A stretch of 64,000 bases of DNA from assembly GCA_030265395.1 (NCBI GenBank), contig JARFYF010000059.1, forward strand, positions 10,195,582-10,259,581. Reading direction: 5' to 3'. Positions 12,002 to 64,000 of the stretch are shown here, piece by piece. The first letter of the stretch is position 1; the number at the start of each line of letters is the position of its first letter. Origin of the DNA: Rhina ancylostomus (Eukaryota). A program made the position numbers and the translations under genes. Under the pieces are notes generated by a model. It was not told where the DNA came from. It ran no database searches and worked only from the letters and a program-made list of their open reading frames with translations.

Positions 12002-12249
12002 TGTCATGGTTCTGAGTTCTGGCCCTCAATTTGGCTCCATTAATGCCTTGTTGTCCAGCACATGGATTCCATGNNNNNNNNNNNNNNNNNNNNNNNNNNN
12101 NNNNNNNNNNNNNNNNNNNNNNNNNNNNNNNNNNNNNNNNNNNNNNNNNNNNNNNNNNNNNNNNNNNNNNNNNGAAGTATCCTGACTCCAGTCTTGTATT
12201 GGTGTGCTGCATTTGGGTTCTGAGTTTGCTCTCGATCAACATTGTGACA
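12002..12249 (+). mobile_element. LTR insertion (solo LTR or gap-collapsed element), TSD CACGC
   Basis: CACGC|TGTCATGG...gap...ATTGTGACA|CACGC. Inserted into a minus-strand CR1 relic. Confidence 0.9.
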
Positions 12250-12905: not shown

Positions 12906-13133
12906 TGCCATGGTTTGGCGTACTGGCGCTTGATTTGGCTCCTTTAATGCCTTGTTGTACAGCACATGGATTCCATGCTGGACTGATTGCATAATGACAC
13001 ACCTGAGCCCCATCAGGGGCCTANNNNNNNNNNNNNNNNNNNNNNNNNNNNNNNNNNNNNNNNNNNNNNNNNNNNNNNNNNNNNNNNNNNNNNNNNNNNN
13101 NNNNNNNNNNNNNNNNNNNNNNNCATTGTGACA
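12906..13133 (+). mobile_element. LTR insertion, TSD AGAAT
   Basis: AGAAT|TGCCATGG...gap...CATTGTGACA|AGAAT. Confidence 0.88.
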
Positions 13134-21916: not shown

Positions 21917-22273
21917 TGTCATGGTTCTGAGTATGGCCCTTGATTTGGCTCCTTTCATGCCTTGTTGTACAGCACATGGATTCCATGCTGGACTGATTGC
22001 ATAATGACATACACCTGAGCCCCATCAGGGGCCTAGCATAAGTACCTGGGTTTCTCTAGCACTAGTTNNNNNNNNNNNNNNNNNNNNNNNNNNNNNNNNN
22101 NNNNNNNNNNNNNNNNNNNNNNNNNNNNNNNNNNNNNNNNNNNNNNNNNNNNNNNNNNNNNNNNNNNGTTGCTGCTGGTGTTTGGTCCTGAGGAAGTATC
22201 CTGACTCCAGTCCTGTACCAGTGTGCCGCATTTGGGTTCTCTGTAAACTTGCTTTTTGCTCAACATTGTGACA
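21917..22273 (+). mobile_element. LTR insertion, TSD AGGAC, nested in an older SINE
   Basis: AGGAC|TGTCATGG...gap...CATTGTGACA|AGGAC. The flanks rejoin into the SINE family seen at 10625-11035. Confidence 0.9.
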
Positions 22274-39869: not shown

Positions 39870-39944
39870 TGTCATGGTTCTGAGTTCTGGCCCTCAATTT
39901 GGATCCATTAATGCCTTGTTGTCCAGCACATGGATTCCATGCTG
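39870..39944 (+). mobile_element. 5' end of the same LTR, inserted in a CR1 RT fragment
   Basis: TGTCATGGTTCTGAGTTCTGGCCCTCAATTTGG... nearly identical to the 12002 copy, then a gap. Confidence 0.85.
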
Positions 39945-60470: not shown

Positions 60471-60602
60471 GAACAAGAGAAGCAGCCTTTGTGTATGCAA
60501 TCTCATCCGCTGGGGTGGCCTTTGCAGTTACTCGTGCCTGTAGCAGTGGAGAGTTGGAAAAGTGTGGTTGTGATCGCACAGTCCATGGAGTGAGCCCTGA
60601 TG
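60471..60602 (+). CDS. WNT4: WNT4 coding exon 3: [44 protein letters not shown](G)
   Basis: Acceptor TGCAG|GA, 132 nt, donor ATG|GTAAAT. Nearly identical to the human WNT4 segment [42 protein letters not shown]. Confidence 0.97.
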
Positions 60603-61177
60603 GTAAATGCAAAAATGTTGCTTCGTCCGGGGACTGTGTGTTGTAGTGAAAGCCATTGACCTTTCACCTGTTAGGATGTGTGTTCTTAACTAGTCAGAGG
60701 GAAAGGTCTCTTTCTTTTTGAAGGGTCCTCTATAAAACAAGTTTCACTAATTTCAATCCAGATCCTGGTGTACATTACAAATCATCTATAATCTGGAAAA
60801 ATTGAACAGGTCAAGCAACATCTGTGGATTTTCTGTTTTGAATTTAAGATTTCCAGTATCTGTGGTACTTTGATTTGTAACCATAATCTGGTATTAATGG
60901 ATAGTCTAATACAGAGCGCATAGAATGGCTGATGTGAAGAAAATCATACATAGTAGGTCCTTTCCTCCAGGTTGGAGCAAGGCTATTTGTTGGGGAAGAG
61001 TATGGGAGAGAGTAACTAAATTATTCTTAATCTGGTAGAATGTTTGATGCTGATACTTGGTGCCTGAGAGGGAAAATGTTCTATTTTCTAGTGCTAATAT
61101 TCATCATGCATGAACAAACAGCCAAGAAAATTCCCTTTCTTGTGCTTCATCATCATTAATGCATTTGTACTCAAAAC

Positions 61178-61572
61178 TGTCATGGATGTGAGTTCTGGCC
61201 CTCAATTTGGCTCCTTTAATGCCTTGTTGTCCAGCACATGGATTCCATGCTGGACTGATTACATAATGATGCACACCTGAGCCCCATCAAGGGCCGAGCA
61301 TAAGTACCTGTGTTTCTCTAGCAATAGTTGCCAGAGTATTGGTCTACCTTTGGCTCCTAGTTGCTTAGAGTGGTGTACTCTAGAGCAGTCCTGTGTTGTC
61401 TATTCCTTATGAAGATCCAGTTCGTGTTGGGATTCCTCTTCTGATCTCTGAGGCAAGATTCCTTCCAGTCACTACCTGTGTTTTTCCTGAGGAAGTATCC
61501 TGACTCCAGTCTTTTATTAGTGTGCTGCATTCAGGTTCTCTATGAGCTTGCTCCTTGCTTGACATTGTGACA
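61178..61572 (+). mobile_element. Complete ~395-bp Gypsy (Tf1/sushi-like) LTR, 5' LTR of a truncated element
   Basis: Ends TGTCA...TGACA. TATA-like CATAAGTA 61299-61306. Homologous to six other segments in the window. Followed by a leader and a gag-like ATG. Confidence 0.85.
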
Positions 61573-61588
61573 GAATACTCTGGTCAGC

Positions 61589-61711
61589 ATGAACCCAGTG
61601 GACAGGAACCCCCTGTATGAAGCCCTCACTAGCCAGGGCTCACTTCTGGGCCAGCATGACCAGGAGCTCCGAGGGGTTGTGGCAGACTTCCATACCCTTA
61701 CTGTATCCTGA
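61589..61711 (+). pseudogene. Truncated gag N-terminus MNPVDRNPLYEALTSQGSLLGQHDQELRGVVADFHTLT, fused to LTR sequence
   Basis: ATG 16 nt after the LTR end. The ALxSQGxLLGQHDQ motif resembles N-termini of fish sushi-type Gypsy Gag. Runs into LTR 3' sequence at ~61703 and stops. Confidence 0.65.
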
Positions 61712-61773
61712 CTCCAGTCTTTGATTAGTGTGCTACATTTGGGTTCTCTGTGAGCTTGCTCAACATTGTGACA
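61703..61773 (+). mobile_element. 3'-terminal fragment of the same LTR
   Basis: GTATCCTGACTCCAGTCTT...CAACATTGTGACA matches 61495-61572. Confidence 0.85.
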
Positions 61774-62764
61774 CCTCACTGGAATTGAGATTATTATTAA
61801 AGCAGCAATGGGAGAATTGCTCACATTTAAAGCCACGTTTCTCTATTTACATCTGAGGTACAGGCGATGCTCCAGCTGTGTCTCAACAATAGTCCTCATT
61901 TCCTGTTGTTCTCCCAGCAAGGAAATTAACATTGTGAGAACAGATACCAGAAAATTATATGTGCACTGCCCATAATTTTTGAGACATCTGTTTTGCCATT
62001 AGAATCACATGTCCAAATTTATGTTGCTCACCATCAGGAGGTTTCTTATCATAAACCAATGTCAGAAAATTATTTCCTAGAAGACTGCACTAACTGTTCA
62101 TGCTGGTGTAAGTGCATGTCATCCCCTCCAGGCACTCAAGATCCTGGGACACTGCCATGGCTACGGCACCACCCCAGTTCACATCTCCCTCCTGGTAGGG
62201 GCAAGATAGGAGAAAGGGGGGGGAATGGTAGTAATAGGGAAGGTGGGATTGGTGGGTGGACATGGAAAGGGGTGAATGAAGTGTCAACATAAATGAAGCT
62301 GGAAGAGTGACTGCAGTTCAAATTTAGTCAACTGTTCAAAAAGTATTCTGGAACATTCCAATAACATAGAAGACTTTTTCAGCTATCTTTGCTTATTCCA
62401 TGTTGTCAAGAGGTCAAAAAACATGCAAAGGTGAAAACATTCACTTGTGAAAGAACTACCATTCAAGTTGTGAGGATATTTGGATTTTACTGACACATAC
62501 AATATCTACAGTTTGGTGTCACTTTTGATAAGATTATCAAACTGGGCTTGACTAGCCTGATAGATTTATAATGAGATTTGAATTTATATTTGTTTGCCCT
62601 TCAGGCTTTTCTTTGTGAACATTTGGAATCATGGTGAGAAATAGACCAGCAAGTTATTGCTTAAACCAGTAATAATTAAGGGTAGGGAAACAAGCAGTAG
62701 ATTGATTAAGGAGCATGAATTACCACACACCAATTCAAAGCCAAATAATACATTCATAGATAAA

Positions 62765-63085
62765 GCTTGGGAACAGGTACGTCAACCCACCGAGTCTGCG
62801 CCGACCATCAACCACCCATTTACACCAATCCTATATCAAGTCCATTTCTAGTTCTCCCCAATGCCTATCAGCTCCCTAAAGATTCTACCATTCACCTACG
62901 CAACAAGGACAATTTATAGTGGCTAATTAACTTAACACTCCACAAGTCTTTGGGATATGGGAGGAAATCAGAGAACCCCGAGGAAACTCATAAGGTCACG
63001 AGGAGAACCTGCACACCCCACACAGACAGCACCTGTGGTTAACATTGTAGTTAGGTCTCTGGCACTGGTGAGGCAGCAGCTCTTC
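62765..63085 (-). mobile_element. V-SINE copy in WNT4 intron 3
   Basis: TTTGGGATATGGGAGGAAATCAGAGAACCCCGAGGAAAC is the reverse-complement V-domain. CR1-type tail at ~62770-62820. Confidence 0.75.
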
Positions 63086-63382
63086 TGATAGAGAAGGAAA
63101 ACCAGGTAAGAGAGGAAAATAATTGGATGAAGCAGAAGTAGAAAAAGTACAGAAATAATAAAAAAATGCAATAAGAGAAATAAATTAAAATCAGACGTGT
63201 TAAATCATAGAACCATAGAACAATACAGCACAATACAGGCCCTTCAGCCCACCATGTTGTGCTGCCCATCAAACCACACCTCNNNNNNNNNNNNNNNNNN
63301 NNNNNNNNNNNNNNNNNNNNNNNNNNNNNNNNNNNNNNNNNNNNNNNNNNNNNNNNNNNNNNNNNNNNNNNNNNNNNNNNNN

Positions 63383-63464
63383 GGAAGTATCCTGACTCCA
63401 GTCTTGTATCGGTCTGCTGCATTTGGGTTCTCTGTGACCTTGCTCCTTGCTCAACATTGTGACA
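63383..63464 (+). mobile_element. 3' end of the same LTR family (5' part in gap)
   Basis: GGAAGTATCCTGACTCCAGTCTTG...CAACATTGTGACA immediately after an N gap. Confidence 0.85.
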
Positions 63465-64000
63465 AAAACAGAGAGGAAAGTACAGGTAGAGTAAGGAATA
63501 CATTTAAATGGTCAGTAATGCTCCCCCTTTCTAACCCCTATATCCCTGAGATGAAACTTTCTTCCATTGTTCTCTCGACTTAGAAGTCTGAATATTTATG
63601 ATGTATTTGGGACACTTTAAGAACTAGAGAGGATGGCTCGATCGTATCCTCTTTATCTTCATTCCTACATGCCCAATGACTTACTGGGACAACTCACCAG
63701 CTACAGCTTACAAGCCCAGCTTCCTCCTGGAATTCATGAGCCACCCTAACTTGAAACAACTGTTTCAGACTAAAGTCAGTTTTCAGTGCCTGTTTAAGGG
63801 AATGAACAAGCCATTTAATGCAAGTACAAACATCTTGTGGTATTTGTGAAAATGTGTGTTTGATTGGCATCTCTTTTGTATTTAACAATTATCCAAAAAT
63901 GTGCAGTCCTGATCGTTTTTGTTTTCCAGAGAGTGGTATTAATCTATCTGGTTTAATTCAGGGCAGCTGCCTGAAAACTGCTTAGAGAGATAGTCAGGCC

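What the first reader, a model, noticed from the sequence alone, without database searches (positions are those of the whole stretch)
61299..61711. Gypsy LTR element with a tRNA-independent self-priming signature
Seen: directly after the LTR end there is no TGG tRNA-type primer binding site. Instead AATACTCTGG (61574-61583) is the exact reverse complement of CCAGAGTATT (61331-61340) inside the LTR. That target lies ~30 nt downstream of a TATA-like CATAAGTA (61299), i.e. where transcription should start. A gag-like ATG follows at 61589. Known: S. pombe Tf1 primes reverse transcription with the first ~11 nt of its own mRNA, and the same mechanism was proposed for vertebrate Tf1/sushi-group elements, the lineage related to mammalian PEG10/RTL1. 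Inference: this is a self-priming sushi-type family in a cartilaginous fish, possibly uncatalogued.
Basis: partly seen in the sequence, partly recalled or inferred. Interest (0 to 1): 0.7.

Follow-up and report, generated by a model that had tools for sequence, protein, structure and literature searches.

The report
Self-priming sushi retrotransposon, with fold-back fossils
This is a broken copy of a very abundant, decayed jumping gene in a fish genome whose copying start site pairs with a stretch of its own terminal repeat instead of a host tRNA, so it likely primed itself like fission-yeast Tf1, a known trick, and some mis-copied insertions that turn around at this stretch likely record that step.

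Summary
Confirmed, and the mechanism is known. The pairing is 11 nt (61330-61340 with 61574-61584, one G:U here). It is kept at 10 or more of 11 pairs in 45 of 54 copies. A distant second family has the same geometry (box at -31, LTR end + one G + 11 nt) with 8 of 11 letters changed and compensated. A second, pseudoknotted U5-leader helix is present in both. Full copies carry PEG10-like Gag, RT, RNase H, integrase and a chromodomain, with 5-bp target duplications: a Tf1/sushi-type chromovirus, for which self-priming is published. The window copy is a fragment and probably joined from two loci. New here: inverted insertions with two U5 ends and matching target duplications; 4 of 5 turn-around points found without a targeted pattern lie within +1 to +16 of the predicted RNA start. 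No RNA start site could be mapped. The scan noted self-priming signatures in other genomes, nothing on this DNA.

The parts
60471..60602 (+). Exon of a Wnt gene; the element lies in the following intron (subtype Wnt4 is recalled, not tested)
   Evidence: Pfam wnt E=1.1e-13; splice signals read
61173..61177 (+). Left target-site duplication AAAAC
   Evidence: empty site in two related organisms joins 61177 to about 63482
61178..61572 (+). LTR of family A, 395 bp, TGTCA...TGACA
61299..61305 (+). TATA-like box at -31 from the predicted start (non-canonical; function inferred)
   Evidence: same spacing to TATTTAA in family B
61330..61340 (+). Predicted self-primer, first 11 nt of the RNA
61525..61538 (+). 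U5 arm of the U5-leader helix (4 bp + 3-nt bulge + 7 bp); two mutations in this copy at 61532-61533
61573..61573 (+). One-nucleotide spacer G (80 of 82 copies)
61574..61584 (+). Primer-binding site complementary to 61330-61340
61589..61700 (+). First 37 codons of gag; 61591-61601 is the other arm of the U5-leader helix
61701..61773 (+). Last 73 nt of an LTR joined directly to gag; its flank CCTCA does not match AAAAC
61774..63282 (.). Single-copy stretch that related organisms hold on another contig with other upstream DNA; probably misplaced here
63383..63464 (+). LTR 3' end after a 100-N gap; true right end of the intron insertion
63465..63469 (+). Right target-site duplication AAAAC
12002..12249 (+). 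Family A LTR ends around a gap, duplication CACGC (solo LTR likely)
12906..13133 (+). Family A LTR ends around a gap, duplication AGAAT
21917..22273 (+). Family A LTR ends around a gap, duplication AGGAC
39870..39944 (+). Family A LTR start running into a gap

Best explanation
The window holds a truncated copy of a high-copy, decayed Ty3/gypsy chromovirus of the Tf1/sushi type whose primer-binding site pairs over 11 nt with its own LTR, and which likely primed reverse transcription with the first 11 nt of its own RNA. Shown: LTR, one G, an 11-nt site complementary to LTR nt 61330-61340, a second helix between U5 and the first gag codons, and in full copies gag-protease-RT-RNase H-integrase-chromodomain with 5-bp duplications. 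Inferred from Tf1: transcription starts at G61330, the 5' end folds onto the site, RNase H cuts between nt 11 and 12, and the freed 11-mer is extended through the spacer G, U5 and R. Inferred from the aberrant copies: RT sometimes left U5 early for a short match in gag, or folded back at +1, at +12 or at the 11-mer itself, and integrase inserted the products by two U5 ends.
For: 45 of 54 copies with both sites pair at 10 or more of 11 positions; the helix is bounded by mismatches on both sides (1 of 53 pair at -1, 1 of 53 at +12). Family B, on a separate Gag branch, has the same register with 8 of 11 letters different; 90% of cells pair in 10 copies; the whole structure pairs at 90.8% against 26-40% when slid. 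A diverged A subfamily changes pair 7 from G:C to T:A (2 of 54; L092, L128). U5-leader helix: 63 of 75 A copies pair at 10 or more of 11; B has its own version. The helix appears in both the minimum-energy and the centroid fold. In four other organisms no listed change falls in 61330-61340 or 61573-61583 while flanks differ (7 rows not shown). Domains. Fold-back junctions and duplications. Tf1 mechanism: passages.
Against: No start site or cleavage was observed. Within families there is no covariation above shuffles, so the case rests on two families and one subfamily change. The whole-leader fold is no better than shuffles (z -0.40). The third helix of the Tf1 'pretzel' is only 3 bp in A and I see no counterpart in B. 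The box is non-canonical and none of 53 copies has an AATAAA or ATTAAA in R-U5. The tRNA comparison covered five isotypes only. One fold-back locus has unmatched flanks (L307/L319) and one turn-around lies in U5 (L125).
Confidence: 0.9

Rival explanations
1. The site is primed by a host RNA (a tRNA 3' end or internal fragment) and the match to the LTR is a structural or packaging helix, not a primer.
For: Only 56 tRNA genes of five isotypes were compared; other LTR elements use half-tRNAs (passage); no start site mapped.
Against: No TGG within 8 nt of the LTR end; longest complement to those 56 tRNAs is 7 nt, 5 nt at the 3' end; the two families have sites differing at 8 of 11 letters, each matched by its own LTR at the same distance from the box.
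Confidence: 0.05
2. The complementarity is chance or a by-product of how this copy was assembled.
For: The window copy is probably joined from two loci.
Against: 91 of 20000 and 135 of 20000 shuffles for the two families separately; 82 independent LTR-PBS junctions examined; full copies with matching duplications (L044, L078, L082, L093).
Confidence: 0.01
3. Self-priming is right, but the inverted two-U5 insertions are library or assembly chimeras, or later homology-driven rearrangements that say nothing about strand ends.
For: Gap-rich assembly with probable misjoins at the window, L043 and L314; an 11-nt inverted repeat can drive switches wherever strands end; no reads were laid on these loci.
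Against: Exact 5-bp duplications flank two like ends in L042, L304, L306, L311, L314 (two U5 or U5-like ends) and L038 (two U3 ends); junction homologies are 2-11 nt, too short for an assembler's overlap (general knowledge); the same 4-nt fold-back at +1 to +4 recurs at two loci 14 Mb apart (L314, L315).
Confidence: 0.3

Closest known systems
Tf1/Tf2 of Schizosaccharomyces pombe (and Tj1, Tosmo1-3)
   Same: 11-nt site right after the 5' LTR complementary to the predicted first 11 nt; flanking helix between a site-adjacent sequence and the LTR; chromodomain integrase (passages).
   Different: Gag here has a CCHC motif, which the fission-yeast elements lack (passage); only one flanking helix is well supported; no biochemical proof here.
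Vertebrate Tf1/sushi group (GyDB V-clade: sushi-ichi, Amn-ichi/ni/san; Butler et al. 2001, not readable here, cited through)
   Same: Vertebrate chromovirus, DUF4939/PEG10-like Gag, predicted self-priming, 5' end TGTYANR matches the Sushi LTR motif.
   Different: Apparently a cartilaginous-fish host; 3' end fits 6 of 7 letters of CNTNACA; gag reads past CCHC without a stop in 8 of 8 copies and stays in frame to the protease motif in 4 of 8, whereas most non-fission-yeast members use a -1 frameshift (passage); about one insertion per 44 kb.
PEG10/RTL1 (Mart/SIRH) domesticated genes
   Same: The only PDB match of the Gag is PEG10 (7lga, E=4.2e-6); DUF4939 hit.
   Different: These are fixed genes without LTRs (recalled); this family is a decayed mobile repeat.

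Membership tests
Ty3/gypsy LTR retrotransposon | LTRs with TG...CA, 5-bp target duplication, polypurine tract | tested here: met
Ty3/gypsy LTR retrotransposon | Order gag-protease-RT-RNase H-integrase; RT nearest to Ty3 among solved structures | tested here: met
   L031: (4ol8, E=3.4e-44); the protease is seen as a DSG motif only, no Pfam hit
Chromovirus | Chromodomain at the integrase C terminus | tested here: met
   22 of the 30 best PF00385 loci are family A; L243 E=6.1e-12; the decayed L031 domain alone gave no hit
Tf1/sushi group | No tRNA-type site; site after the LTR complementary to the 5' LTR | tested here: met
Tf1/sushi group | Three-helix 'pretzel' | tested here: inconclusive
   central and U5-leader helices met in both families; third helix 3 bp in A only
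Tf1/sushi group | Primer is the capped 5' end of the RNA | not testable with these tools
   no RNA holder listed; indirect: box at -31 and fold-back points
Tf1/sushi group | RNase H cut between nt 11 and 12 | not testable with these tools
   indirect only: junctions at +10 to +16 in L005 and L021/L045
Tf1/sushi group | RT-integrase phylogeny inside the clade | not tested
   no named reference set was fetched; a Gag tree (quick method) places A beside a ray protein and both families among teleost and unnamed DUF4939 Gags
tRNA-primed gypsy elements | TGG 0-5 nt after the LTR and 12 or more nt complementary to a tRNA 3' end | tested here: not met
   (five isotypes only)

The most novel reading that the evidence does not exclude
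Self-priming elements leave their own class of genomic fossil: short fold-back integrants with two U5 ends, produced because the primer-binding site equals the start of R, whose turn-around points mark the RNA 5' end (+1) and the RNase H cut (+12). This genome would give the first in-vivo record of self-primed reverse transcription in a vertebrate, and a way to map primers in any self-priming family from DNA alone.
Probability: 0.45. Interest if true: 0.65.

Novelty: new member of a known kind. Interest (0 to 1): 0.42.

Why it matters
Self-priming is proven for fission-yeast Tf1 and described as 'implicated' for hosts from fungi to vertebrates (passage). Two families with compensated 11-mers extend the signature to what is probably a cartilaginous fish, where one family reached tens of thousands of insertions. 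That alone is an expected extension. The fold-back integrants matter more: if long reads confirm them, they are products of the priming step itself and a DNA-only test for the many predicted self-priming families.

Tried and rejected
No RNA holder listed, so no start-site mapping; both read layings were contigs. Searches for a third family gave only A and B; one search used a poorly framed query. The 1249-aa 'open frame' at L077 is an N gap. Pfam gave nothing on the 37-aa window gag piece, or on the protease, CCHC and chromodomain pieces of L031 and L044. The genome tRNA search returned five isotypes only. The gag-joined fold-back of L005 is unique by exact pattern. One search found nothing because the pattern was mistyped; one search is the corrected one. 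No partner for the CCTCA flank was found in 264 kb around the window. The careful Gag tree did not finish; the quick tree was used. Butler 2001, Lin and Levin 1997 (RNA) and 1998, and Levin 1996 are not held.

Full report
Observation. The LTR runs 61178-61572, is followed by one G, then 61574-61583, the exact reverse complement of 61331-61340. G61330 pairs with T61584 as G:U; in most copies that base is C, so the family helix is 11 bp. A 10-nt complement anywhere in this LTR arises in 91 of 20000 shuffles. The ATG at 61589 opens 37 codons of gag; at 61700 the sequence jumps to the last 73 nt of an LTR.

The locus. It lies in an intron of a Wnt gene. AAAAC precedes 61178 and follows a further LTR end at 63464, beyond a 100-N gap, whereas the end at 61773 is followed by CCTCA. 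Contigs of two related organisms join 61177 to about 63482 and carry 61774-62822 on a different contig with other upstream DNA; the two closest organisms have all three LTR junctions. So the intron insertion is 61178-63464, and the piece with the PBS probably comes from a second insertion joined in through the LTR. No listed contig spans the copy, so this is inference. It does not affect the family-level result.

The family (A). A search with the junction gave 998 candidates, 40 scored. Nine insertions lie in 400 kb sampled outside the window, about one per 44 kb, which extrapolates roughly to 5 x 10^4 in 2.2 Gb (three regions only). L031 holds both LTRs around DUF4939/Retrotrans_gag, RT, RNase H, and integrase, all broken by stops and frameshifts. 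Four copies checked have 5-bp duplications (L044, L078, L082, L093); paired LTRs are 82-95% alike (five pairs), so the copies seen are old. The Gag's only PDB match is PEG10, the RT's best is Ty3, and 22 of the 30 best chromodomain loci are family A. Of 40 Gag relatives the best is from Mobula birostris (56%); the other named ones are teleost.

Conservation. Of 82 distinct LTR-PBS junctions, 54 also had the upstream LTR stretch: 9 pair at 11 Watson-Crick positions, 45 at 10 or more counting G:U, and one (L059) has lost the stretch. The spacer is G in 80 of 82. Pairing does not extend: 1 of 53 at -1 and 1 of 53 at +12 (L059 dropped). L092 and L128 change pair 7 on both sides. In contigs of four other organisms no listed change falls in the two 11-mers while the flanks differ (7 rows hidden).

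Compensation between families. One Gag hit belonged to a distant family B. Ten of its 13 loci carry LTR and PBS. The geometry is the same: TATTTAA box 31 nt before a G (shorter in L104 and L109, not visible in L105), 11-mer, and LTR end + G + complement. The 11-mers (GCCAGAGTATT in the window, GTTCACTCATC in L099, L101 and L106) differ at 8 positions. 90% of cells pair in that helix; the whole structure pairs at 90.8% against 26-40% when slid; within B there is no covariation above shuffles, as expected for copies decaying after insertion. Both families also have a helix between U5 and the first gag codons with a 3-nt bulge (63 of 75 A copies pair at 10 or more of 11; B 95% and 86%). It crosses the primer helix, which is the 'pretzel' described for Tf1 (passage). 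The third helix is only 3 bp in A. The primer helix is in the predicted fold, but the leader as a whole folds no better than shuffles.

tRNA. No TGG follows the LTR. Against 56 tRNA genes of five isotypes the longest complement is 7 nt; this set is narrow.

Aberrant copies. Seven junction copies (six, L023) read PBS, about 130-180 nt of gag, then only the last 17-73 nt of U5, joined at short matches. Several insertions have two like ends with exact duplications: L311 AAAAT, L042 TGAAC, L306 TAATG, L304 TTTAG (its right end is an LTR-end-like motif in gag), L314 GGTAG (across a gap and another LTR end), and L038 GGTTG with two U3 ends. L307 does not match across two gaps; L305, L308, L312, L313 and L315 cannot be judged. 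Turn-around points inside the LTR that were found without a targeted pattern: L046 and L314 at +1 to +4, L052 at the 11-mer, L005 at +11 to +16, L125 in U5: 4 of 5 within 16 nt of a 404-nt LTR. An exact pattern for the L052 type finds 5 loci genome-wide, L052 included. A deletion in both LTRs of L021/L045, probably one event, ends at +10 to +13. I read these as template switches during reverse transcription. Junctions at the 11-mer need only the homology; those at +1 to +4 and +11 to +16 use 4-5 nt matches and fit strand ends at the RNA start and at the cut site. The sample is small and was not checked against reads.

Known work. Tf1 uses its first 11 bases, cut by RNase H between 11 and 12 (passages of PMC7175516). 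Self-priming is a common feature of the Tf1/sushi group, including vertebrates (passages of PMC6317226, bioRxiv 2022.12.06.519325 and PMC4600332). I also saw passages of PMC3601003, PMC4340606, PMC11042837 and PMC4350176. The primary papers, Butler 2001 among them, were not held, so I cannot say whether they cover cartilaginous fish. Searches (listings and abstract starts) showed no paper on a chondrichthyan sushi family; searches showed none on two-U5 fold-back integrants. The library lacks most subscription journals, and Dfam and Repbase were not available. Earlier notes of this scan report self-priming signatures in BEL/Pao and copia elements of other genomes (unchecked), which is why membership here was tested by domains and not by the signature alone; none covers this DNA.

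Verdict. A real self-priming signature in a new member of a known group (confidence 0.9). The fold-back integrants are the part worth following. Interest 0.42.

Noticed in passing
L304, L306 (=L052), L311 (=L023), L042, L314: Short insertions with two U5-type ends in inverted orientation and exact 5-bp duplications; L304 ends at an LTR-end-like motif inside gag.
   Followed up: partly
L038:224-1033; L094: Insertions with two U3 ends in inverted orientation; duplication exact in L038, 4 of 5 letters in L094.
   Followed up: partly
L005/L312: Tandem repeat of the unit PBS-gag-U5 end, preceded by an inverted LTR piece that stops just after the primer.
   Followed up: partly
L021, L045: Both LTRs lack the stretch from about nt 41 to the end of the primer, box included; near-identical flanks suggest one duplicated event.
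   Followed up: partly
family A R-U5, e.g. window 61330-61572: No AATAAA or ATTAAA in 53 of 53 copies, while most family B copies have ATTAAA; how A ends its RNA is open.
   Followed up: no
window 61178-61572 laid on runs X1-X4, X10: Summed contig depth over the LTR is hundreds of times higher in organisms A and B than in D and E, which lack this intron insertion: a lineage-specific burst is likely, though depth is no copy number.
   Followed up: no
gag-protease junction, L032, L049, L155, L217: Gag and protease lie in one reading frame, unlike the -1 frameshift usual in the group.
   Followed up: partly
L032: A second gag-pol stretch is nested or tandem inside one pair of LTRs.
   Followed up: no
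L046, reverse strand ORF of 218 aa: An unrelated reverse-transcriptase fragment that looks retroviral; not characterised.
   Followed up: no
window 12002-39944: Four more family A LTRs in this window, denser than the 400-kb sample.
   Followed up: yes
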